Below the pieces are notes generated by a model. It had not been told where the DNA came from, searched no databases, and worked only from the letters and a program-made list of their open reading frames with translations. Shown here piece by piece: positions 916 to 37,502 of a stretch of 64,000 nucleotides of DNA (its first letter is position 1; each line of letters starts with the position of its first letter). Position numbers and translations under genes: made by a program. Origin of the DNA: the human T2T-CHM13v2.0 reference genome, Homo sapiens; the NCBI RefSeq assembly GCF_009914755.1, contig NC_060935.1; one strand, 5' to 3'.

Positions 916-1194
916 GTGGAGAAGAGGCCTATTCCTCCAGCTCAAGGGTGGTCTCAGTAGTCGTTCTGGAACCAGGCAAGGTCAGGTTCTTAGCACCTTG
1001 CAGGGTCTCCCCCAGGGGACCTCTCTTTAGCCACCAGCCGCCAGACTTACTTTACAATCTCTTCCCTCTCTCCTCTGATTCTCTGAGTTTGCTGTTCCCT
1101 CTTCCTGGGATGCCCTTTCCCCTAATGTCTGCCTAAAAAAAAAATCTTAAAACCCAGCTGTCACCCCTAACACGACTCCCTTAGTTAACCATGG

Positions 1195-1430
1195 CTGGCA
1201 CTCATATACATTTGGTCTAACAGGCACCAATCTAGGTGCATTACGCATCTTAACCTGTTAAATCCTCACGAGCACGTGGAAGCAGTGTCATTTTGTCACC
1301 TGACGGATGAGGAAAGAAAGGAACATAGAGGTTGAGGAACTTGCCCAAGGTAACACAGCTTGTGAGTGGCTGAGCTGGGATTGAAACTAAGCCATCTGAC
1401 TCCAGGGTCCAAACTCTTAGTGGCCATGCT
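1195..1430 (-). mobile_element. MIR SINE
   Basis: gatgaggaa...aggttgaggaacttgcccaaggtaacacagct...gagctgggattgaa core. Many other MIR fragments in the window are not listed. Confidence 0.75.
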
Positions 1431-2589
1431 ATCCTATGTCTCCGGGACTGATCTGCCTCTTATCTGGTGGTACCATCCTTATCTGTGCCTGGGTCTGTCC
1501 ACCACACCAGGCTGGGAGCTCTGAGGACATGTCTTGTTAACAGTGTCCTCTGTACTTTAGTCTGAACCTGTACTCAGTGAAGGTCGGTTATATGAACTCG
1601 TGGTAGAATGCCTGGAAGCTCACCACCAGCACTTCCTTGTGTCTGAGGTCTGGGTCCTGTCCCAATGTACTGCTATAGATGGGCGGGGAGAGATAGGTGT
1701 GCCTGTTTTCGGCTTGACTGGGGGAAGGACCTCTCCTGAGAGCGGTGTCCCTGAGAGGTCACAGGAAGTGAGTGGGAATCACTGATCAGTCAGCTTCGTG
1801 CTGGACAGCAGAGCCCTGGGTTCCCAAGGCTGGGACAGGGAGTGGGGTAGAACTGGGCCCATCCTGGGTGGCTCTGAGCCCTGTGTGAGGCATCACCGTC
1901 TTTTTCGTTGCCATTCCCCCCACCCAGTCCCCCGCCCCCACTCTCTGCCGTTGTTCATTCGTTGGGGAGCAGTTGGCTTCCAGGATACTAGGCAATGCAG
2001 AGAGCCACAAATGCAGACTGGAGGCCTTGAAAAGAGAAGAGGAAGAAAAAGGAGGAAAGAGGGGAGGAGGACAAAGATAGGCAGGGCAAGGCGAGAAGGA
2101 GGGAATGGGAGAGGAGTCACAGGGCCTGGGCCTTCCGGACCCTCGGGATGGGACGGTGGCCTCTGGCTCACAGCCCAGCGTGGACCGACGCCTGGTGTCC
2201 AGCCCTGTGTGGCTGCTAGGACACAGGAGGCCAGCTTGGCCCATTGCAGGGAGAGCTCTGAGCCATCGAGGTGGTTCAGCTGTCCTGGGGAGTTCAGGGG
2301 ACCCCACACCAGGCCTCCAAGGCCTCTTCTGCAGGATGGACGTGGGCTGCTATTTGACCTCGGGGGCTGCGGGAGGAGGACATAGCCTCTTCAGGGGCTT
2401 TCCCCCAAACTTACCCCAGAAGGAAACTGTATCTGCCCTCACTCCCCAGAGGCAGCCAGGGAGCCAGAAATATCTTCAATGCATCTCTCCTTTAGTCTTA
2501 AAAACCCCGGGAGTTTACCGCGTTCTAGTCCATAACATCCTCGTGTTTCCTTCCATGGAAAACATAGAAAAAAACATGACGATTTTTTC

Positions 2590-3070
2590 CAAAACTGCCG
2601 TCAGGTGCGGTGCCAGGTGCCACGTTTATCCCGGGCCTACCGCCGCGGTGCCAGTGAAGCCGCCTGGGATTCCGGGCAAAGTGGGGCTGTGGGGGGTTCG
2701 GCCGAGACGGAGGGGGCCGGGGTGGCGCGGGCGCCCCCTCGCCGTCCCGCCCGCGGGCGTCACCTAAGCCGCCGTTGCCATGGGCCCGCAGCAGATGGCC
2801 CGGTTTAGGGTTCCGGGGCGGGCGGCGCGCACGGGATTAGGTGAATTAGGGAGCCGGAGCAGTGCCGCCGTCGCCGTCGCAGCGCCATGGAGGACCCCGC
2901 CGACCCTGCCGACCCCGCGCGCATCCCGCAGCCCGGCAAGTGGGCGCTGGTGCGCAGCCTGAACCAGGCGTTCAAGACCTACGCCGTCCTGCCGGTGAGG
3001 CCCGGGCCAGGAGGGGAGAAGGGAGGGGGAGGGCGCCTCGCCCCGGGCCTCAGTTTCCCCGCCTGTTAGA
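2590..3070. promoter_or_regulatory. CpG island / probable alternative promoter in intron 2
   Basis: Very high GC and CpG density with GGGCGG-type boxes, surrounding the ATG at 2887. Confidence 0.8.
2887..2994 (+). CDS. MYO7A: Candidate alternative first coding exon (N-terminus MEDPADPADPARIPQPGKWALVRSLNQAFKTYAVLP)
   Basis: Strong Kozak gcgccATGG in a CpG island; 36 open codons end at donor CCG|GTGAGG, phase 0, matching the phase-0 start of exon 3. Confidence 0.72.
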
Positions 3071-5520
3071 AGCTGGGCGGGCCACAAACAGGGTCGCTAG
3101 GCTTCAGGGTGTGCATGGACTGCGGCCCTAGGATGCCACCTGCGGTCTCTGACCTCCCCCAGTGTGAACTTGGCCGCGGCTGCCCTTTCCTAGGAGGAGA
3201 GGTTTTGCATCTGGGAAACCCAAGCCAGGCAGGCCAGGTCTGGGCGGGGGTGTCCTGCATTTGCTGAGATCCAGAGCAGGGAGCACCTCCAGGTGCACAG
3301 AGGGACCCCCAGCCATAGTTTATGGACTGGCTGACCGCTGATGGAAGAGAAAGCTAGGCCCACTGGTCTCCTCTCCAAACTATGTTTAGCAACTAGACAC
3401 TAGCAAGATGCTTGGCTCACGTTTCCCATCTGTGAAAATGGGGTGATAAAACCGGTGTCCCAGAGTGATCATGAAGATAACGAGCGGCAAAATGTCCTGA
3501 AACAGATTCCTTTTCACTCCACAAACAGGGACTGGCCCCAGGCCTGGTCCCAGAGGAAGGAAGAGGCAGAAAGGGCTAAGGCCCTGTGGGGAATTATTAA
3601 TATTGGCTCGAGACCGGCTTGATGCCTGGGAGGAAGGAGGGTAGACAGAAAGAACAATGTGCATTTGCATGGGTCTCTCATCTTTACATGCACTGACTCC
3701 TTCCATTTCATGGCTGGTGGAAACTGAGGCCCAGAAAGATTGAGTGCCTCACCCAGAGAGACACAGCGTTAGTGGTGGAGCTGGGACTATAAGCCAGATC
3801 TCCTATGTGTTCACTGTGGATATGTGCTGGCTTTCCTGGGGGGAGGCCCCACAGGGGTTTTGGAGTACCCCTGAGAACATTCGAACAGACCCATTCTAGG
3901 AAGGCACGACTCGGGCTGGGAGCCTGCATAGCTGGCAGGGCCTGGGAAACCCTCTGCCCTGGTCATATATTTGATAGGAGAAAAGCTGGGACTTGCCCCA
4001 CGTTACACAGCCACACTGAGGCATGTGTCGTGTCACAAACGAGATCTTCCATTCAAGGTGAGTACCAAGCAAGGCGCCCCATACAGTGTGTAAAGTTGTC
4101 ACGGAACATGGTGTAGGAATGGGGCCAGATGCAGTGGTGGGGTGCCTGGGGCTAGCCATGGGGATGGGAGGGGGTGGTGGGGTCCTACCTGGAGCCTGGT
4201 TCCCCATTCTCACCTCCCTCCTGCCTCTCAATGAAGCTTCATCTTCTTTCATGGCTTCCTTCCTCCCTTCCTTCTCCCTCTGAGCCAGTGACTCCTGATC
4301 CACCCTGATTTTGGTCCTGGCTCTGTCCTCCAGATGCTAATAGTCCTGTCAGTCACTGATTTGATGAGTGACTGTGGCCAGGTTCCTTTCTCTCTTTGGC
4401 CCTCAGTTTCCTCGGCTGTAAAATGAGGATCCTTACAACCTGCCTGCCTTGCGATGCTTCAAGAACTTTCCCTAGGGCCACAGGAATATTCCCCTTCAGA
4501 AGTCCTAAGACCCCAGAATTCTCCCTGAAGCCTCTCCCCTGCCATCTGAAACTGTTTCCTCAAGTCTGGCCTAGAGCAAGATAGTTTGGTCACTGCCCTC
4601 TGTGACAGCCCTAAGTAAGAAGAGTTGTAGTCATGTCTGTTTGCTGTGTGGCCCCAAGAGCTTCACTCAGCCTCTCGGAATCTCCATTTCCTGCTCACAT
4701 GAAGTTTTTTTTATTTTGGTTATTTTATCTTCTCCCAGGGGAAACAAACATTTTCTGTGTGCCAGGCCCTGTGCTGGGTTGAGGGATACAGGTGACTCAG
4801 AGAGACCCCTGCCTTCCAGCTGCCCTCAGCCTAAGTCTCCAGCTTGCCTTCAGGGCCCTTGAGCCATCTGGGCGGGGGAGGACTCTATCAGTGTTTCCTG
4901 TTTTGCTCAGTGAGCTGCATGTGGGACTGGGCCCAGGGAATGTCAGGAAAGAGCCCTGGATTTGGGGTTTGTCAGACCTGGGCTTCAGTCCTGGCTCTGC
5001 CACAAAACAGCTGTGTGACCTTGGGCACGTTTCTTGACCTCTTTGAGGAGAGAAATTGGAGACAGTCCCCTGGCCACATGCTGTTGCCCACAAGCGAACA
5101 CGCTCCCCACCCCTTCTCTCTCACCGAGGCCCGCTCTGGGCTGGGCTCTGGGGAGCCACAGATGAGGGACTCAGACCCAGCCCCACCCTAGGGAGCTCCA
5201 GGCCAGTGGGGAAGGGGAGCAGACCCTGTGTGGGGTGGCTGTCAGGGGTAAGCCCAGGGTCAGGGAGTGCAGCTGGGGCTTGGACACAAGCAGCTGTGAG
5301 GATTATATGGGGCAGTTTACGGGATGCAGCCTGTGGAGCCCAGGCCCACAGTGAATGCTCAGTAAACAGTTCTCTTCCACGCCCAAGCCTCTCCAATTTT
5401 TCTTACTTTTTCTGGGAGGAAGTTTGGGTTTGGGACTAGCCTGACTCTATCATGTGCCAACCTCCCATTCACATGAAGAGAGGGTCCACAGGGGCAGCTG
5501 TGGCTGGAAAATAGCACATA

Positions 5521-12279: not shown

Positions 12280-12836
<557 letters not shown>

Positions 12837-13162
12837 TGAGCGGCTTGGTGCTTTGCCCATGCACAGGAGGGCAGCTCTGCTGGGCGTTTGCTAAGGGACT
12901 AGGACCTGCCATCAGGCCGCAGGGCCAAGAGAGGATGGATAGGGATGGATGGATATCCTCAGGAGGGTGCTAAAGGAGGGAACATGCTCTGCTCCTCCAC
13001 CCCTCAAACCTTGATATTAGAAACACACACACACACCACTCTCCTCCACCTTCAAATGGGGAGGACAAATAAAGATGTCTGCCCCAGCCAGGACAGAGCA
13101 GATTCCAAGAGGCTGAGCTCAGAGAAGAGCAGAGCAATAAGGGCCCGTGGAGATCATTTACT

Positions 13163-13638
13163 CTAGAGGTTCTCACACTTTTTGGTCACAGGGACCCTTT
13201 ATGTTCTTAAAAATTATTGAGGATCCCAAAGGACTTTTGTGTACTGGGTTATATCTGTTGATATTTGCCATATTAGAAGTTAAAGCTGGGACATTTAGAA
13301 ACGTATTAATTTTTGAAAAAGTAACCATAATAAATCTATTATAAGATAATATAAATAACATTTTTACTAAAAATGACATTTCCCAAAATAATAAAAATGG
13401 TGAGAAGAGTAGCATTGTTTTTACAGATTTTTTCAAATCTCTTTAATGTCTGGCTTAATAAAGCCAACTGGATTCTCATCTCTGCTTCACGTCCAGTCTG
13501 ATGTGATATTTTGGCTGAAGTGTTTGAAGAAAATCTGGCCTCACAGATGTGTAGTTGGAAAAGAGATGGCTTTGCAGACTTCCTGCAAGGGTCTTGGACC
13601 CCCTAGGGGTCTTTGGTCCACACCCTGACAACTGCTGC
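13163..13638. mobile_element. hAT-Charlie non-autonomous element (MER119-like)
   Basis: Ends aggttctcaca.../...tgacaactgctg, flanked by ctctag target-like sites; AT-rich interior. Subfamily from memory. Confidence 0.65.
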
Positions 13639-16600
13639 TCTAGCCCAATAGCCCAGTTGCAGACAGGGAAACTGAGACTCCACAGGTTTAGCCAGGCCCA
13701 GAGCTGTGCCGTGCCCGGGTCACTGCCTGCTTCTGACCCAGCCCCATCCTCCCGCAGCCCAAGGGTAAAGGAAACCAAGGATGTGCAACCCCCAGCAGAG
13801 AGCAGGAGGGACCCCCCTGATGCAGGGCTGGCCTGATTATCTCGAGACCCAGGCCCAGGGAAGGCTGGTACTAGGGGCATTACTGGGGGAGGTGTGGGGT
13901 CTGCAGGAGTGATGTCACTCCCAGCTCAGAGGGGTGGTATTTGGGCTTCTGGAGGTGGGTGAGGTTGGCTGGTAGAGATGGCATTCAGGAGGGGGCATGG
14001 CATGAATAAATGCTGGAGGTAGGGCCATGCTGGCAAGCGATCGGCAGGCAGTGTCCCTCAGGTTGTCAGGACCATGAAGGGGTGCTAGGGCCCAGGGCTG
14101 GAAAAGTCTCAGGGAGCCCCAGGTGTTGTCACTGAAGAATCACGGCAAGGAGCTCTCAGGGCCAGGGGTCCAGTCCCTCTCAGGAGCCCTGGAATTACGG
14201 CCCTTCAGCTGCCAGAGAGGTCCTCAGCCACTGTCTGACTCTAGGTCCCTCTGCAGCTTCAGGCTCCAGAGGAGAGGCTGTGTATGGCTCCTTGCTGTCC
14301 ATTTTTTGGGCATAGGAAGTGGCTTTCGCAGGGAGCCTTCTAGCACTGACAAAGCCCCTCTCACTCTGTCCCTCAGTCAGGCCTCACCTGCACTCAGAGA
14401 GGCAGGGCATGGGGGGCTCTTCCAGATGTCATCAGCATCACCCAGCCAGCAGGGAGGAGCTAGAACTCGAGCCCAGGGCACCCACCCGCCGTATCTCACA
14501 GGGACCCGCTGGTGTCCACACCCCAGTTCTTGGCAGCCCCCTCTTCCTCTCCCTGGAGGGCAAGTGGCTACTGGTGGGTCCTGGGGTTCTCTGTGGCCAC
14601 TCACCCAGGCCTGGGCAGTCCCACCCTTAGGTGAGCAGGGAGCCTGTCCACCTGCCTGCAGGGTACTTCCAGGGCCAGTGTTTTGTCATTGTCCCTATGC
14701 TGAGGCTGGAACCCAAGGCCCACTCTCCTGTCAGGAGGAGGCGGAGGGCCCCGTCTCAGGGGAGGAGCTGGGTAAAATGGAAGTTTTCCCGCCGGGCCCC
14801 CTGCAGACCAGTGTCTCAGCATAGCTCAGGGGCATGAAGCATGTGGGTCAGCCACAGTGCAGGCAAGCCGGTCCTCATGCGAAGGAGTCGGTAGGTCAGC
14901 TGCATCAAGGAACAAAGGCAAAAACAGGATTCATAAGGGAGAGGGAGGAAAAAACTTCAGACACCATGGGCACAGTGAATCTTGTTTGTAAAATTAGGAG
15001 GGTGGTGAACTGATCCCTGGGTGGCCAGCAGAGGATAGCTTGGACATTACATCCTCCAGGAGGGTTTCAAAGAAAATAACTTCAGAGATTTATGGGTTCT
15101 CCAGAAAGGCCCCAAATCTGAACCATTTGCCTCATTTGAAGTTCTCACCATAACCTTTCTGACTTATTTTCTGGGCGAGAGGGAGGAGGCAGGGCCGTCC
15201 CCTGTGGAGGGACGGGGTGGGGGTCCAGGTAGGTGAATAAGCTGCCTTCTTGTCCAGGACCCCTGGCCGGGAAACCACGCTGTGGCACCTGGAAGGGCCT
15301 CAGCTCCAATAGTCCGCTGACCTTAGATTCTCAGTGTCTCTTGGACTGGGGATCCATGCTAAAGAACTGTGGGATTCAAAGAGGTTTCCTTGACTCGCTG
15401 AGTTCATGATTCTGTGACTTGGTGGATGAGGTAGGATTAGAGCAGGGCTTTGAAGAAGCAACTGGGCCATCGTCCCACCCGGAAACCAAACCTGTCCCTG
15501 ACCATGGCAACCCCCCGTCCCTTCATGGATTGGGTTACCCTGGGCACAACACGTGCGCTCAGGATTTCCTCCGATTACCATGGCCAGCTCACAGCCTTGG
15601 GCCGGCGGATGCTCTGCTCTTGACTGTCTTGGGCTCGCCTGCCTCCAGCTTCCCTGTCCCCAGGAGCCTGAGAGAGCATCCCAGGGCCACACATCAGCCC
15701 CAGCCACTCCAGAATGAGGAAAGGCCCTCAGAGAACACTTAGCAACCCCTCACTGCATGGTCCTAGAGAGCAAGGACTGTCCCCGCATTGTGTGGAAGGG
15801 CTGGTGGGGACCCAGGGCTCCCTAACGCTGAGCAGAGGCTGGAGCCCTGATCTGGGAGGTGGGAGGCTGGTGTCCAGTCTTGGCGTGTGCCCTTGGGGAC
15901 ATCCCTATCCCTGTCTGGTCTCAGCCTTTCCTAGGCACAACAGGGAGACTGCATGGAGTGGGCACCTTTGTGGCTGTAGGAAGACTTGTGAGTCCCAGGA
16001 TGTGTTCTTGGTCTCCATGGCCCGCTAAATGCTAACGAAGTCCCCAGAGCCGACAGGCCTGGGCACTTCCTGGAGGAGGTGAAATTGATTCCTGCTACAT
16101 CTCTGTGGCCTCAGAGAGGCCCCCTGAGCTCCGCCTGGGGACCCCTAGGGACCACACGTGCTGTATCCCTGGTTTGGGAATAGTCCTCCTCTCTCCCCAC
16201 CCAACCTGTGACTCCACAGGGCAGATTTTACTACTAGAGATTGGAACAAGAGGTCTGTGCTGGGCATTAATTCTCTGCCAACCTGAATCCTTAGAGAGAT
16301 TGGCCAGAGGGCTCAGGGAGCAGTGCTAAGACCTTGGAGGACCGATGGGCACAGAAGCCCAGAGAGGGCCAGGGCCTCATTGCCAGTGGTGGCCAGCCTC
16401 CTCTTCCGGAGACCCCAGCTGCTGGCTCTGTCAGTCCCATGAGTGTGTTCCTGGGGTTTGGGGAAGCCCAGGTGGAGAGGCCAGAGCTGGGGCTCTGGTG
16501 CCAGGGTGTCTCGTTCACCCTACCCCCCACACATCTGCTGTGTGACCTTGGCAAGTCTCCCACTTCTTGGAGGCTCGCCTCTCTCATCTGCAAAGCGGGG

Positions 16601-16967
16601 ATATGATCACACCTCCAGAGGCCTTCTGAGGAAGTAAAAGGGGTGATGGGGTGGGAGCTGCAAAGTCCTGAGCCCAACAGGGCTTGCTCTTGCCCTCTTA
16701 CTGGAGAGAATCTGCCTCACCGAGGAAAGAGGCCTCATTTCTCTTATTTGTTTTGTAGATAGATAAGTAGTTAGGTAGATACATACATACATAAAAAATT
16801 ATTCATTTTTTTCTGCACAGATGGTAGCATCCCTCCCACGCTGTTCTGTGGTTTTCCACTGGCCACATCCCGACCGCCTTTCCCGTCAGCATGGCTGGGG
16901 CTGCCTCAATGCTGCTGACAGGCCTGTCCCCTCGCTACCTTCCCTGCAGATTGCTGTGGCTGGCAGT

Positions 16968-17197
16968 GGCAAGGCTTCCTGTTGTGGCCTTGAGGCCCTG
17001 CCACAGGGGACAACAGCCTGGCCCTTCTGCCACCAGAGCAGGGTGAGGCACTCAGGGTTACTTCTCCCTCCTCCCACCCCACGTCTCAAACTTGAAAAGG
17101 TCAGGCAGGCCTAGACCATAATTGGCAGTGGATGTATTGATATCCGGGGCCTGGAGAGGCTGAAGAAAGATGTCCAGGGGAGGTGACAACCTGCCCT
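16968..17197 (+). repeat. Left arm of 230-bp inverted repeat
   Basis: Reverse complement of 19561-19790 at 229/230 positions (aligned by hand). Confidence 0.97.
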
Positions 17198-18402
17198 GTA
17201 CTTCCCCGCCCATTGATCTAGTTGCTCTTTCGGCCGCTCAGCAAACGTTGCTGAGCATCTCTTATGTGCCGTGCATGGTGCCAGGCCCTGGGGGACAGAG
17301 GCCTTGAACGGGGACTGTAGAGGAGTCAGCTGGGCATGCTGAAGGAGACCTGTGGGTATGATGATTGTACAGGAAGGTGCCTGGCTTCCTGGAGGAGGCA
17401 TCGTCTCCGCTTGAAACTGAAGGATGAGAAGGAATTATCTGGACGAAGGGGTAGGGGAAGCGTGTCCCTGGTCTGAGATGGCAGGGGATGGAGTGTGGTG
17501 CTTTTAACTGAAAGTTTCATATGAATGGAGCCTCTTGGTTGTGAGTTGAGGTTGACGAGGGTGGCAGGAGCCAGGGCTTGGGGCCTTGTGGACAGGGAGA
17601 GGATTTGGACTTTGTCCAGAAGCTGTGGGAAACAGCTGGAGGGTTTTCAGCAGGGATGATGTGGTTAGATTTTTTAAAAGCCTGCATGGCTCCGAGTGGA
17701 GGATAGATTGTTGGGGGGTTGAGTATGGAAGCCGGGAGTCCAGTGGGGAGGCACCTGCAGTGGGCTGTTGAGAAATGAGGGTGGCCTGGCCAGGGAGGCG
17801 GCATGCAGATGGAGAGTGGGAGTGGTGTGAGGGAGGGGTGTCCAGGGGCTCCCCAGTTTCCTGCCCTGGGTGAGGGATGTGATGGTGCTGTTGGTCGAGT
17901 TGGGAAGGCTGGAGAGAGCAGGGTTGGAGGGAAGGGGGAGCTCTGGTCTGGATGTGCTGGTGGCATTGAGTAGGGACATCAGGAGGCTCAGGGCTGAAGG
18001 GTTCATGTGCAGGAGGACCCTCTGGGCTGTGGGCAGAGTGGAGAAGGCCGTGGGTGCCATGGGTGGGAGAAAGCCTGGCCCCAGCCCTGGGCCAGCTTCT
18101 CACAGCGTCTCAGCATCCCCCATGTCCCTCTCTGGACTTCCCGTGCCTTGCACGTGGCCACAGAGCCTGCTCCCAGGGCCTCCCTCCATCGGGCTCTGAC
18201 TGCCTTCTGGAAGCTGGTCCATTAGGTCTGAAACGGCCTCTGCCTCCAGCCTGGGTGACCACCATTCATCCTCCACAGCTGCCGGGGTGACCTTTCACCA
18301 GCAGACCTCCTAAATGTCACGCCCTTTCACGCCTCTGTGCTTGCTACCAGCGGCTGGGCCCCCTGGCTATCCCTCCCCTACACCCCTATCTCATGAAATC
18401 TA

Positions 18403-18714
<312 letters not shown>

Positions 18715-19095
18715 TTATGTATCAGGCGCCTGGCAAAGGTTATGTCTTTGCCCTTTAGTCTTTACAACAGCCAAGGGAGGTGGGTGTTAACCTCCCCTTT
18801 TACAAATTAGCAAACTGAGGTTTGCCAAAGGGATGTTCTTTGGGGCTGGTTCCTAGTCTGATGCAGGTTTCCACCAGAATCTAGCCGGTTCCCATGGCTG
18901 GGCAGGGCTGAACTATAGGGGATGATGGCTGAGGGGTCTGAGAGCAGGGCCTGGTGGGCTGGGGGTCCACAGGTCCTGATCTGAGAATTCAGCAGCCCTG
19001 GGCCATGTGGGTGTCATTCGTGGAAAATGCTCTTGTAGCCCCTGTTCCCCACTGACCAGCTTCCTTTTCTTCTGCTCTGCACTTTGCAACCTCAG

Positions 19096-19113
19096 ACCAA
19101 CTGCGGAGGGCGG
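19096..19113 (+). CDS. MYO7A: Candidate 18-nt microexon (TNCGGR) between exons 4 and 5
   Basis: Branch point ACTGAC at 19051, long pyrimidine tract, TGC at -11, ctcag|ACCAACTGCGGAGGGCGG|gtgagt; phase 0/0, no stop. Confidence 0.8.
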
Positions 19114-19560
19114 GTGAGTGTGGCACAGAGAGCCAGCTCCAGCTGGCATCTTATTTGGCTGCCTGCCTGCTTGGCCTGGCTGCTCCCCTCCAGCCTCCCG
19201 CCCCCACCCCACCCCAGCTCTTCCTGCTTGGCTCTCGTGGTACGGTTAGTAGGTCAGCACAGTGAGGCTCAAGTGCTTCTCTCCATGGGTTGATTGGAGG
19301 AAGAGGCTTAGGTGGGAAAGGAAGGTCTTCCTGGGCCCAGGGGCCCAGAGAAGGGCAGTTTCTGGCCAGCCCTCCTGGTCCAGGCCAGCCAAGGCCAGGA
19401 CTGGAGCCTGGGTCTTGGCCCCACCTGGCCCCAGGGTGGGCATTTCCCCTGGCATGCGGTGCCTGCATCCACACTCTCCCTGCGTGGCCACAGTAGGCTG
19501 AGGCTGCTGGGGCATAGCTGCGGCTCTGCTGTGATGCACTGAGCCCTGAATGGGAGGGGG

Positions 19561-19790
19561 AGGGCAGGTTGTCACCTCCCCTGGACATCTTTCTTCAGCC
19601 TCTCCAGGCCCCGGATATCAATACATCCACTGCCAATTATGGTCTAGGCCTGCCTGACCTTTTCAAGTTTGAGACGTGGGGTGGGAGGAGGGAGAAGTAA
19701 CCCTGAGTGCCTCACCCTGCTCTGGTGGCAGAAGGGCCAGGCTGTTGTCCCCTGTGGCAGGACCTCAAGGCCACAACAGGAAGCCTTGCC
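19561..19790 (-). repeat. Right arm of 230-bp inverted repeat
   Basis: Single mismatch: A19762 opposite C16996. Confidence 0.97.
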
Positions 19791-20429
19791 TACAGACAGC
19801 TGATCTTTGCACTAACAGAGGAGCCCAAGTAGAGAACCTCCTTAAGGCTATCTGAGGTGCACCTGGCCCCTGCGCCTACGCTGCCCAGGATGGCTGGAGG
19901 TGCTCTGTCCCCTAGAGCACAGCATCTCCCTCTGTCCTGGGGCAGTGCTACAGAGAGTGGGGCCCACCCAGCCCCCAAGCCACTTACCCCAGCTCCTTCA
20001 GCTCTTTATGGCTAATTTCTCACGCCCCTCTTCCTCACCAACCTGGCCTCCCTCTGGACATGGTCCCGTTGATTAATTTCGCTCTAAAAGTTTGGGATAC
20101 AGGGCCTGGAGGCGATGGTGGGAGACAGCATTTGCAGAGTACCTAGTGTGTGCCACGAATTTTAAAAGATACCACCTCCTTTAATCTTCACAAACAGTTA
20201 CGCTCATTTTACAGATGAAGAGAAGGAAATCTAGGCTTAGAGACTCCACCTCCCTCTTCATCAAATGTCACTGAGCACTAACTCCGAGCCAGACCCAGTG
20301 CTGGACAGAAGGCCCTGCCCCAGCTCCTAAGGAGGCCCGATTCTGGCTCCAGGTCCACCCACATGACTCCAAAGCCAGGACTCTTCCCTCCAGGGTGCTG
20401 GAGCAGGGCAGAGCCCAAGAGCTTTCTAG

Positions 20430-20735
<306 letters not shown>

Positions 20736-30554: not shown

Positions 30555-30848
<294 letters not shown>

Positions 30849-31519
30849 TAATGGGTATGGAGCTTTGCTGTGGCTCCAGGAGGGGCCTGGAGGGGCCTCA
30901 AAGGTGTTCCCATCTGGTCCTCTTATTGTACTAACTGGGGATATGGCTGGGGTGCAAGGCCCAGAGAAGGGTCACCTGAGAGGTCACAGAGCAGAACCGG
31001 TCAGGGATCGGTTTACTGTGGGGGTCCACCCCCTGGAATCCAGCTGCTAAAGAGAGCATGGGCAGAAAGAGCACATCCAGCTTGAAGGATGTGGGGTGGG
31101 TGTGGATACTCAGAGAAGCTGGCACAGAGGGCATGTCTGTGCCAGCCCCAGACCCCATCAGACAGTGGGAGAACAGCCCCCTCCGCCTTTCCTTAGGCCC
31201 TAGGGTGAGGGTCTAGTGGATTTTTTCCTGCTGGGTTGCATGCCTTTTTATTTCATATTTTCCTCCTGTCCCATGGCTTCCTGGAGGGTGCATGAAGTCC
31301 TCACGCAGAAGACAGTCCTTGCCCCTTCCATGCCTGTCCAGGTGCCTGGCTGTCCCCTGCCCTCAGGACCACCAAGGCATCACAGAGCTTCCAGGACCCC
31401 AGACCTCTCCCTGAGGGTCCCCCTCTCTCCATGGTGGATTTTGAGTGGTTTTGTGACCCACCACATTCTCCTTGCCCCTCCTCTCCCCATCTCACCCTGC
31501 ACCGTGGTTCCTGTTGTAG

Positions 31520-31573
31520 TTTCTCTGTGGTTATTCATCGGGTACTCTGCGCCACTCAGCAGCTGCTGCGAAG
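31520..31573 (+). CDS. MYO7A: Candidate 54-nt cassette exon in motor loop 2 (FLCGYSSGTLRHSAAAAK)
   Basis: Pyrimidine tract with CTCAC branch point, gttgtag|TTT...GCG AAG|gtaaaa; phase 0/0 between exon 15 (ends ATG) and exon 16 (starts GGC); no stop. Confidence 0.68.
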
Positions 31574-33093
31574 GTAAAAGACCCCAGCCCGGGGCTGAGG
31601 ATGGCGGGAGAGGCCTCAGCGGCCTGGGTGGGGCTTGGTCCCGAGCTCCCACTGTGCTGAGACTCGGGAAAAGGGCTGGGCTTTTTCTCCTTTTTTTTGG
31701 AGTGTGTTTTTGTGTGGAGTGGTTTGTGGAGTGATTTTTGTGTTTGGTTTTTGAGTTGTGTGTGCTGCAGGCATTTCTTTCTTCAAGGAGGAAACTGAGT
31801 CCTAGGAGAGGGGCAAGGCTTGCCCAGGGTCCTCTGGGAACCGGGGACAGAGTGGGGACTCGAACGCAGGTCTCCTAAGGCCCCTTGGAGGCGTCAATCC
31901 CCGGTCCTTCCACCAGGCCCTGGTGGGCGCCTATGGCCATGCCTTGACCAGATCCTCAGATAACCTTGCAAGGCAGGAGGGACAGGTAGCATTTTCTGCA
32001 TTTTGCAGATGAGAGACTGAGGCTGAGAGAGGGGATATGACTCATTCCAGGTAACAGCATTCTGACAGGGAGCTGGGACTAGGAGACACCATTCCCCGGA
32101 CCTCCTTAGGTCTGAAACAGCAGCCCTGTTGCATCCTGAACTCTGGTTCAGGCCGTGGCTCCCACGGTGCTCTAGACCCCAAAGGTGCTGGGTACCCCTT
32201 AGCAACAGCATGGTGCTGCCAACCCCTTTGCCTCCTTTTCTCTCCTCAGCCCTCCATTTCCTCTCTGCCAAATACTGACATCCTTCCACTTTGGCCTGGT
32301 GCTGAGTCCTTCTTCCTTCCTGCCTGCCTGGCAGAGTTCTGAAACAATCCACACACCCCCAGCAGTAGACAGGGCATGTCAGGAGCAAGGAGCTTGTCTG
32401 GATGGTGGCCTCTCCCCTCTGCCCACAGATCAGCCCTGGAAGAACCTCCTGCCCCCACTCACCCTGACAGACCAACACTGTAGGCTGGCCGACTGCTGGG
32501 GTGCACACAAGGCCAACCTGAGAGAGGGGAGTCCCAGGCACTCGAAGCACTGGCACCCAGGAGAGTCCCCACCCGAAAGCCCTGTGCTGTAAGGTGGCTG
32601 TACTGCTGAGACGGGCGTAGCTCTGGCCTCTCCCACTCTTTCCTCTTCTCCTGTAGCCCTGCTGGCCCCTCGCTGGGCCCATCCATTCCTCCTGGTCTTG
32701 GGCATACTCTGGTTAAACCCCATCTTCCCCTCCTACCCGTTCTTCTCTCTCCTCTGTCTTTTCAAAGCTCCTTGAGGCATCTGGGAACACTCCATGATAT
32801 TTCCTGCTCGAGTTTCCTACTCCTGGGATTAGAACCCACTTACTGAGAAATCATGGAGAGGTCAAAGTGCAGGAGCCCAGAGTCTCCAGAAATGGCCCCC
32901 TCCAGAAGAAGTTTTAGGAACAGAGAATTAGGATACAACAGTGACCAATCTGATACCAGTTACATCTACTGGGCACCTCTTCTGAGCCAGGCTATGAGCT
33001 AAGCACTTATATTTATCACCTCATTCACTCCCCACTGCAACCTGGCGAGTAATTACTATTACTCCCACTTTACAGGTGAAGAACTGGGGCCCA

Positions 33094-37052: not shown

Positions 37053-37502
<450 letters not shown>

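What the first reader, a model, noticed from the sequence alone, without database searches (positions are those of the whole stretch)
31520..31573. 54-nt in-frame cassette exon in actin-binding loop 2
Seen: a good acceptor (C/T tract, CTCAC, gttgtag), a donor AAG|GTAAAA and phase 0/0, inserting FLCGYSSGTLRHSAAAAK between ADVAM and [10 protein letters not shown]. Established: this position is loop 2, whose length and charge set actin affinity and actin-activated ATPase; nonmuscle myosin IIB/IIC have spliced loop-2 inserts (B2/C2). Inference: myosin VIIa has an analogous regulated insert absent from the canonical protein.
Basis: partly seen in the sequence, partly recalled or inferred. Interest (0 to 1): 0.78.

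Follow-up and report, generated by a model that had tools for sequence, protein, structure and literature searches.

The report
Known MYO7A loop-2 exon 15B
This is the human copy of a small optional exon of the deafness and blindness gene MYO7A, first reported in mouse hair cells in 2019, which adds 18 residues to the motor's actin-binding loop and has never been tested for function.

Summary
Window 31520-31573 is an open 54-nt AG...GT cassette, phase 0/0, between the exons ending ADVAM (M599) and starting GAETRK (G600).

It is a real exon, not a chance pseudo-exon. An insert beginning FLCG sits at exactly this junction in 121 vertebrate MYO7A gene models, from placentals, a marsupial and monotremes to birds, reptiles, a salamander and teleosts. 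The human peptide matches the sloth/anteater/bat version at 16 of 18 residues.

It is already in print. Ranum et al. 2019 (PMC6424336) describe "Myo7a exon 15B": 54 bp, in frame and conserved, with a human interval consistent with this site. They detected it in 17 of 44 outer and 13 of 31 inner hair cells of mice.

Still untested:
- whether human tissues include the exon
- what the insert does to the motor; both solved MYO7A motor structures lack it

Added here:
- conservation down to teleosts, with an invariant LCG motif
- a displaced pyrimidine tract and a 72-nt AG-free zone before the acceptor
- the most GU-rich block of the intron about 117 nt downstream

Seen in passing: a second conserved 18-nt micro-exon (TNCGGR) at 19096-19113.

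The parts
31520..31573 (+). Cassette exon, the human orthologue of Myo7a exon 15B. It is 54 nt, phase 0/0, and encodes FLCGYSSGTLRHSAAAAK. It lies at c.1797+777 to c.1797+830 by my count.
   Evidence: sequence and translation; an FLCG-type insert at the same junction in 121 vertebrate MYO7A models. Ranum 2019 exon 15B; the 201 nt around it are unique in the human assembly.
31446..31519 (+). Acceptor region. It has a 72-nt AG-free zone, a pyrimidine-rich tract displaced to -60..-21, a CTCAC branch-point candidate (its A about 26 nt before the exon), TGC at -22, and a ttgtag acceptor.
   Evidence: the AG-free zone is 72 nt, and only 1 of 30 annotated exons has a longer one. Pyrimidines are 0.82 at -60..-21 (mean of real exons 0.52) and 0.65 at -20..-4 (mean 0.71); acceptor weight-matrix score 2.6 bits.
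31574..31579 (+). Donor site, AAG|gtaaaa.
   Evidence: score 8.6 bits, mid-range among the 30 annotated donors.
31690..31772 (+). GU-rich block 117-199 nt downstream of the exon. I infer it is a candidate intronic splicing enhancer for GU-binding factors.
   Evidence: The 75-nt windows starting at 31690-31693 have the highest G+T fraction of the whole 6585-nt intron (0.92; mean 0.51, sd 0.09). All 27 of 6510 windows at 0.88 or more start at 31673-31702. The block holds 9 of the intron's 50 GTGTG/TGTGT words. Its function is not shown.
30637..30743 (+). Upstream constitutive exon (exon 15), ending ...[12 protein letters not shown] (M599).
   Evidence: this peptide is directly followed by the exon-16 peptide in both solved MYO7A motor chains.
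37329..37466 (+). Downstream constitutive exon (exon 16), starting [10 protein letters not shown] (G600). This is the actin-contacting part of loop 2, followed by the next helix.
   Evidence: PMC13396587 names G600-R606 as loop-2 residues, with 408 A2 buried on actin.

Best explanation
Window 31520-31573 is the human orthologue of the alternatively included coding exon published as Myo7a exon 15B.

When spliced in between exon 15 (ending at M599) and exon 16 (starting at G600), it adds 18 residues at the N-terminal edge of the actin-contacting segment of loop 2. The insert has an invariant hydrophobic and cysteine-containing start (F-L-C-G-Y). This is followed by a Ser/Thr/Ala/Gly/Pro-rich stretch with no acidic residue that ends in Lys, for a net charge of +1 to +2.

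Shown:
- the exon is intact in human
- it has been conserved in jawed vertebrates from teleosts to mammals
- in mouse it is included in part of the Myo7a mRNA of inner and outer hair cells, alongside the form without it

Inferred:
- the longer loop changes how the motor docks on actin (actin affinity, actin-activated ATPase), giving sensory cells a second motor variant
- inclusion is regulated through a weak acceptor with a displaced pyrimidine tract, and through the GU-rich block just downstream
For: Anatomy.

Conservation:
- In the untargeted search with the exon-16 peptide, 12 of the 69 proteins in which both flanking exons could be aligned carry an FLCG insert at the junction. A 13th, P0095, joins an alternative bird first exon directly to the insert.
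- After the targeted search, 121 of the 177 proteins in which the junction could be read carry it. Models come from NCBI, UniRef/Ensembl and EukProt sources.
- There are 23 distinct insert peptides. L2, C3 and G4 are invariant in 23 of 23, F1 in 22 of 23, Y5 in 21 of 23 and the last residue K in 21 of 23.
- The human peptide is 16/18 identical to the sloth/anteater/bat version.

Expression: PMC6424336 Fig. 4 legend and Table 1.
- The mouse exon is chr7:98,090,360-98,090,413, which is 54 bp.
- The human hg19 interval is chr11:76877917-76878106.
- The table flags it as conserved, ORF kept and coding.
- It was seen in 17/44 outer and 13/31 inner hair cells.

Coordinates: the distance between that paper's exon 2B and 15B intervals (28,659 bp) fits the distance from the annotated alternative first exon 2898-2994 to 31520 in the window.

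Position in loop 2: (G600-R606, 408 A2 buried on actin). One search confirms the numbering: ADVAM ends at residue 599 in models with the canonical N-terminus.

Regulatory anatomy.
Against: - No human transcript evidence was available to me.
- No primate, Mus/Rattus, carnivore or ungulate protein with the insert appears among the best 120 hits. The human X17, Aotus, Nomascus, cow X4 and rabbit X11 models lack it. Clustering at 90% identity may hide insert-bearing isoforms, and the hub's list of exons of other transcripts is cut off.
- The acceptor is weak by a weight matrix.
- The mouse cochlea long-read study (PMC13396587) and the human retina long-read study (PMC12047242) do not name this exon in the passages I read. 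The retina paper's Supplemental Table S1 of minor MYO7A events was not among the files held.
- No kinetic or structural data exist for the insert. Both solved motor structures lack it.
- The charge gain is small (+2), so a simple more-positive-loop model is weak.
Confidence: 0.85

Rival explanations
1. The exon is real in other vertebrates, including mouse, but is a silent relic in humans and other primates. The sequence is still intact, yet the weak acceptor is no longer used in any human tissue.
For: No primate model with the insert was seen among the best 120 hits. Human X17, Aotus and Nomascus models lack it. The acceptor scores 2.6 bits. The human retina long-read study lists no such event in the text I read.
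Against: - The reading frame, the AG and GT sites, the invariant FLCGY start and the final K are all intact in human, with 16/18 identity to xenarthran and bat versions.
- Human inner-ear RNA is rarely sampled, so missing annotation is expected for a hair-cell exon.
- The weak-acceptor, AG-free-zone architecture fits a regulated exon as well as a dead one.
Confidence: 0.11
2. The insert in the database proteins is an annotation artefact. One wrong model would have been copied between species by homology-based gene prediction, so the human stretch is only a look-alike.
For: Most insert-bearing proteins are computed models. Gene-prediction pipelines do use proteins of other species as guides (my own knowledge).
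Against: - A model can only be copied if each genome keeps an open frame with splice sites at that place, and this holds from teleosts to mammals with 23 different peptides.
- Models come from separate pipelines: NCBI, Ensembl via UniRef, and EukProt.
- Single-cell reads in mouse hair cells show real inclusion.
Confidence: 0.02
3. It is a chance pseudo-exon: an open AG...GT stretch of the kind long introns hold by the hundred.
For: The same intron has 697 in-frame open AG..GT pairs. Ten others have a summed splice score at least as high.
Against: Conservation of the peptide at exactly this junction in 121 models, and published inclusion in mouse.
Confidence: 0.02

Closest known systems
Myo7a exon 15B (Ranum et al. 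2019, Cell Rep, PMC6424336)
   Same: Same gene and same intron (between exons 15 and 16). Same length (54 bp in mouse by the printed coordinates, 54 nt here). In frame and coding. The paper describes it as a loop in the actin-binding region. The printed human interval is consistent with this site.
   Different: Nothing differs in kind; this is the human copy. The paper gave mouse single-cell reads, placental conservation and a model.
Loop-2 inserts of non-muscle myosin IIB (B2) and IIC (C2)
   Same: These are also cassette-encoded inserts in loop 2 of a myosin motor, giving tissue-restricted motor variants.
   Different: They belong to a different myosin class, and no sequence relation was tested. 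Their kinetic effects have been measured; those of the MYO7A insert have not. The MYO7A insert starts with a conserved hydrophobic FLCGY motif and adds little charge.
Constitutive long loop 2 of the paralogue MYO7B
   Same: Human MYO7B carries 20 extra residues (ETKLGHGTIRQAKAGNHLFK) at the same place. They are encoded as a run-on of the upstream exon, with the intron after the final K in phase 0. BLASTP runs through the junction.
   Different: These residues are not optional in MYO7B, and the homologous intron holds no FLCG cassette. Similarity to the cassette beats shuffles only for placental versions (5 and 7 of 5000; human 178 of 5000). It does not for marsupial, monotreme, bird, reptile, salamander or fish versions (1145-5000 of 5000). 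Common descent is therefore not supported.
MYO7A N-terminal isoforms C, S and N (Li et al. 2020 PMC7190839; Li et al. 2026 PMC13396587)
   Same: These are hair-cell isoforms of the same motor that differ in ATPase activity. The 2026 paper links their difference partly to loop-2 conformation.
   Different: They arise from alternative first exons, not an internal cassette. Neither paper mentions exon 15B.

Membership tests
Myo7a exon 15B (Ranum 2019) | Lies in the intron between exon 15 (ends ADVAM, M599) and exon 16 (starts GAETRK, G600) | tested here: met
   One search confirms the numbering (ADVAM at 595-599 in models with the canonical start).
Myo7a exon 15B (Ranum 2019) | 54 nt, keeps the reading frame, no stop | tested here: met
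   The mouse coordinates in Table 1 of PMC6424336 span 54 bp.
Myo7a exon 15B (Ranum 2019) | Falls in the printed human interval hg19 chr11:76877917-76878106 | tested here: inconclusive
   No liftover tool was available. The relative distance to the paper's exon 2B interval (28,659 bp) fits the window positions 2898-2994 and 31520, so the site is consistent but not exactly mapped (and the hub table).
Myo7a exon 15B (Ranum 2019) | Conserved coding sequence | tested here: met
   121 models and 23 distinct peptides, with LCG invariant.
Myo7a exon 15B (Ranum 2019) | Included in hair-cell mRNA | not testable with these tools
   Reported for mouse only (17/44 outer and 13/31 inner hair cells). No human RNA data were on hand.
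Loop-2 splice inserts of myosin II (B2/C2 type) | [quoted passage not shown] | tested here: met
   loop-2 residues G600-R606 contact actin; position in the solved chains.
Loop-2 splice inserts of myosin II (B2/C2 type) | Sequence relation to the B2 or C2 peptides | not tested
   No B2 or C2 sequence was fetched. The resemblance is by position only.
Loop-2 splice inserts of myosin II (B2/C2 type) | Insert changes actin-activated ATPase or its regulation | not testable with these tools
   No data exist.
SRRM3/SRRM4-type neural or sensory micro-exon | Length at most about 51 nt (usual definition, recalled) | tested here: not met
   The exon is 54 nt.
SRRM3/SRRM4-type neural or sensory micro-exon | UGC motif close to the acceptor | tested here: inconclusive
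   One TGC at -22, which is not above what chance gives.
RBM24-dependent inner-ear exons | GU-rich element in the downstream intron | tested here: met
   the most GU-rich block of the intron starts about 117 nt downstream.
RBM24-dependent inner-ear exons | Inclusion falls when RBM24 is lost | not testable with these tools
   The review PMC10018040 says a Myo7a exon is RBM24-dependent, citing Zheng 2021. That paper is not held, so I do not know which exon is meant.

The most novel reading that the evidence does not exclude
Sensory cells make a MYO7A motor that differs from the textbook protein at two conserved sites. One is the 18-residue loop-2 insert, whose invariant FLCGY start would be a docking element rather than a floppy spacer. 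The other is a six-residue TNCGGR insert from an 18-nt micro-exon that I did not find described. On this reading, inclusion of exon 15B is driven by the GU-rich block through a factor such as RBM24. The cDNAs used so far for kinetics, cryo-EM and gene therapy would then describe only one of the native motors. The two small exons would also be unscreened coding sequence for unsolved Usher 1B and DFNB2 cases.
Probability: 0.3. Interest if true: 0.6.

Novelty: already known. Interest (0 to 1): 0.35.

Why it matters
MYO7A is the Usher 1B / DFNB2 gene and a target of gene-replacement therapy.

- **Motor function:** an optional exon in the actin-binding loop means that the canonical cDNA may not reproduce the full set of motors made by hair cells.
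- **Diagnosis:** the stretch c.1797+777 to +830, usually read as deep intron, is coding sequence in at least some cells, which matters for interpreting variants.
- **A gap in the field:** the exon was reported in 2019. Yet the two main MYO7A isoform papers (2020, 2026) and both solved motor structures leave it out. The question of how MYO7A is tuned in hair cells therefore has a ready, untested variable.

Tried and rejected
- **Peptide-only protein search:** I searched with the exon peptide plus read-through, 'longer' lengths, E up to 10. It found nothing. This was a false negative: 18 residues are too short for a database of 5.8 billion, and proteins over 2000 residues were not searched.
- **Length workaround:** I tried to reach full-length proteins by giving a long raw frame of the window with a 'region'. 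It errored because the frame contains stops, and I did not pursue it.
- **Splice-signal scoring alone:** it would have led me to call this a chance pseudo-exon. Conservation overruled it.
- **Homology to MYO7B:** the cassette is not shown to be homologous to the constitutive extra loop segment of MYO7B. BLASTP aligned them, but the shuffle test holds only for placental versions.
- **Ancestral loop length:** the representatives search gave mostly single-exon fragments. The few long class-VII-like proteins include both short and long loops, so this is undecided.
- **Bird alternative first exon:** I looked in the human intron for a counterpart of the exon (MKPSLALT...) that joins exon 15B or 16 in some bird models. 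There was no convincing match.
- **Structure prediction:** a prediction of an insert-bearing motor domain (alignment A1) was not accepted, because the tool was not ready.
- **Papers and supplements not available:** Zheng 2021 on RBM24 is not held. The retina paper's supplement with minor MYO7A events is not among the files held.
- **Minus strand:** stop-to-stop frames around the exon show nothing that calls for another reading.

Full report
**What is in the sequence**

Window 31520-31573 is 54 nt and reads FLCGYSSGTLRHSAAAAK. It follows ...cctgttgtag and is followed by gtaaaa. The TAG of the acceptor is an in-frame stop, so the open frame begins exactly at the proposed exon start.

The upstream annotated exon ends ...[12 protein letters not shown]|gtaagc, and the downstream one begins cag|[10 protein letters not shown]. 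Both junctions are in phase 0.

**Is it more than chance by sequence signals alone? No**

I built acceptor and donor weight matrices from the 30 annotated exons in the window.
- The candidate acceptor scores 2.6 bits. Only 2 of 30 real acceptors score lower (leave-one-out), and 88 of 550 AG sites in the same intron score at least as high.
- The donor scores 8.6 bits. 14 of 30 real donors score lower, and 8 of 357 GT sites score at least as high.
- The 6585-nt intron holds 8241 AG..GT pairs of 27-300 nt, of which 697 are in frame and open.
- Three of those, counting this one, have both scores at least as high. Eleven have a summed score at least as high.

On this evidence I would have called it an ordinary pseudo-exon.

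**Conservation changes the verdict**

A search with the exon peptide alone found nothing. In hindsight this was a false negative: 18 residues cannot reach significance in 5.8 billion proteins, and proteins over 2000 residues were not searched.

A search with the downstream exon's 46-residue peptide returned 120 listed proteins, many of them named vertebrate MYO7A models. I located both flanking exons in each.
- In 69 proteins both could be aligned.
- 54 of these join ADVAM directly to GAETRK.
- 12 carry an insert beginning FLCG exactly at the junction.
- A 13th, P0095, joins an alternative bird first exon directly to the insert.
- Two other inserts (P0034, P0060) are unrelated and look like retained intron.

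A second search used one insert-bearing model (P0020, residues 586-631) and reached full-length proteins. Over all 233 proteins then held, the junction could be read in 177. Of these, 54 have no insert, 121 have an [F/Y]LCG insert and 2 have unrelated inserts. That set is enriched by design, so 121 of 177 is not a prevalence.

By the names the sources give, carriers include:
- sloth, anteater and pangolins
- a bat and a mole
- several rodents: kangaroo rat, marmots, ground squirrel, pocket gopher and vole
- a marsupial, and platypus and echidna
- many birds, including chicken
- crocodilians, turtles and squamates
- a salamander and teleosts

There are 23 distinct insert peptides of 18-29 residues, plus a 38-residue double copy in monotremes. 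L2, C3 and G4 are invariant in 23 of 23. F1 is kept in 22, Y5 in 21 and the final K in 21. Tetrapod versions have no acidic residue, a net charge of +1 to +2, and 4-8 Ser/Thr/Tyr.

The human peptide matches the sloth/anteater/bat version at 16 of 18 positions. The 201 nt around the exon occur once in the human assembly, and the stretch is not listed among the masked repeats in the hub table.

**It is already in print**

Ranum et al. 2019 report "Myo7a exon 15B" (PMC6424336). I read the Fig. 4 legend, Table 1 and the passages shown.
- Mouse mm10 position: chr7:98,090,360-98,090,413, which is 54 bp.
- Human hg19 interval: chr11:76877917-76878106.
- At that time it was in neither RefSeq nor Ensembl. 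The table flags it as conserved, ORF kept and coding.
- It was detected in 17 of 44 P15 outer hair cells and 13 of 31 inner hair cells, expressed together with the form lacking it.
- It was modelled as an unstructured loop whose position suggests a role in actin binding.

I could not run a liftover. However, the distance between that paper's exon 2B and exon 15B intervals (28,659 bp) fits the distance in the window. That runs from the annotated alternative first exon at 2898-2994 (hub table) to 31520. My exon count also makes the flanking exons 15 and 16.

Only this one paper in the searched library holds 'Myo7a' together with 'exon 15B'. No paper holds the peptide strings. Searches on MYO7A with loop 2, splicing or micro-exon brought up no functional study.

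The two MYO7A isoform papers never mention the exon: Li 2020, PMC7190839, and Li 2026, PMC13396587 (term look-ups). A 2024 review names only the C and S isoforms (PMC10982375, passages). The library does not cover most subscription journals.

**Where the insert sits**

ADVAM ends at residue 599 in models with the canonical N-terminus. The cryo-EM study of actin-bound MYO7A names G600-R606 as the loop-2 residues that differ between isoforms. It gives 408 A2 of loop-2 surface buried on actin for MYO7A-C (PMC13396587, passages). The insert therefore enters immediately before the actin-contacting stretch.

In both solved motor chains the exon-15 peptide is directly followed by the exon-16 peptide (9DFV_D 596|597, 9DFS_D 636|637). 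All structural and kinetic data so far therefore describe the form without the insert.

**How it most likely works**

Shown: an intact, deeply conserved, in-frame cassette at the loop-2 edge, with partial inclusion in mouse hair cells.

Inferred: inclusion gives a motor with a longer loop 2 and altered docking on actin. Two features argue against a simple added-charge model:
- the conserved part is the hydrophobic FLCGY start, not the charge
- the rest varies in sequence but keeps its Ser/Thr/Ala/Pro/Gly-rich character

A length effect plus a small docking or capping motif seems more likely. The Ser/Thr content also leaves room for phosphorylation. These are conjectures. I could not obtain a structure prediction.

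**Splicing anatomy (new here; its function is inferred)**

- The acceptor is preceded by a 72-nt AG-free zone, and only 1 of 30 annotated exons in the window has a longer one.
- The pyrimidine-rich tract is displaced upstream. Pyrimidines are 0.82 at -60..-21 (mean of real exons 0.52) and 0.65 at -20..-4 (mean 0.71). This explains the poor matrix score and fits a regulated exon.
- The 75-nt windows starting at 31690-31693, about 117 nt past the donor, are the most G+T-rich of the whole intron (0.92; mean 0.51, sd 0.09).
- All 27 of 6510 windows at 0.88 or more start at 31673-31702. The block holds 9 of the intron's 50 GTGTG/TGTGT words.

A 2023 review states that RBM24-dependent, apparently cochlea-specific exons include one in Myo7a, citing Zheng 2021 (PMC10018040, passage). 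I could not read Zheng 2021, so whether that exon is 15B is unknown.

**The paralogue**

In human MYO7B the homologous upstream exon runs on for 20 more residues (ETKLGHGTIRQAKAGNHLFK) before its intron, which also follows a K in phase 0. The intron itself is filled with a short tandem repeat and holds no FLCG-like frame. MYO7B thus has a fixed long loop 2 where MYO7A has an optional one.

BLASTP aligns the MYO7B segment with the cassette. In shuffle tests, however, the similarity holds only for placental versions:

| Cassette version | Shuffles scoring at least as high (of 5000) |
|---|---|
| Two placental versions (P0020, P0139) | 5 and 7 |
| Human | 178 |
| Marsupial, monotreme, bird, reptile, salamander, fish | 1145 to 5000 |

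I therefore do not claim common descent. Other class-VII-like representatives show both short and long loops.

**What speaks against human use**

I saw no primate, mouse or rat, carnivore or ungulate model with the insert among the best 120 hits. The human X17, Aotus, Nomascus, cow and rabbit models lack it. Clustering may hide isoforms, and the hub's table of exons of other transcripts is truncated, so I cannot say whether RefSeq annotates it in human.

The human retina long-read paper reports only 'incidental' novel exons for MYO7A, in a supplementary table I could not see (PMC12047242). I put about 11% on the reading that the exon is intact but unused in humans.

**Verdict**

The thing itself is already known as Myo7a exon 15B and is now present in many automated gene models. 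Its function remains untested.

Interest is modest (0.35). It is a neglected variable in a medically important motor rather than a discovery.

Noticed in passing
window 19096-19113 (+), in the intron 12528-20483: A second conserved optional micro-exon of MYO7A. It is 18 nt and encodes TNCGGR, between ...HLIY and [13 protein letters not shown] in the core of the motor. The acceptor is ...ttcttctgctctgcactttgcaacctcag, with three TGC within 25 nt, and the donor is gtgagtgt. 50 of the 125 database models in which this junction could be read carry it, as TNCGGR, TNCGGQ, TSCGGR or a 9-residue variant. Carriers are birds, ground squirrel, mole, crocodilians and lizards. All 50 also carry exon 15B, but that set was selected for 15B. 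It is not in Table 1 of Ranum 2019, and no paper holds the peptide strings..
   Followed up: partly
P0156, P0157 (echidna and platypus MYO7A models): Monotreme models carry two tandem copies of the exon-15B peptide, 38 residues in all, with the two copies slightly different. Another platypus model (P0163) has one copy. This suggests a duplicated cassette, possibly used alternatively.
   Followed up: no
L002 (G000:C2:128023500-128025600): Human MYO7B encodes a fixed 20-residue extension of loop 2 at the same site. Its following intron is almost wholly a GGTGGATGG-like tandem repeat.
   Followed up: partly
L003 513-530 (G000:C2, MYO7B intron homologous to the one holding the 18-nt micro-exon): An 18-nt open AG..GT candidate (ACCRDR) with a strong pyrimidine tract but a weak donor (gtcact). 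It might be the MYO7B counterpart of the TNCGGR micro-exon. There is no supporting evidence.
   Followed up: no
P0088, P0090, P0095, P0097 (bird MYO7A models): Some bird models start with a short alternative first exon (MKPSLALT...TKQK) spliced to exon 16 or, in P0095, to exon 15B. These would encode proteins that lack most of the motor. No convincing human counterpart was found in the intron.
   Followed up: partly
P0001-P0017 and many hits: Dozens of short 'proteins' from metagenome sources are single-exon read-throughs of vertebrate MYO7A exon 16 with intron sequence on either side. They come from animal DNA in metagenome assemblies read by a prokaryotic gene caller.
   Followed up: no
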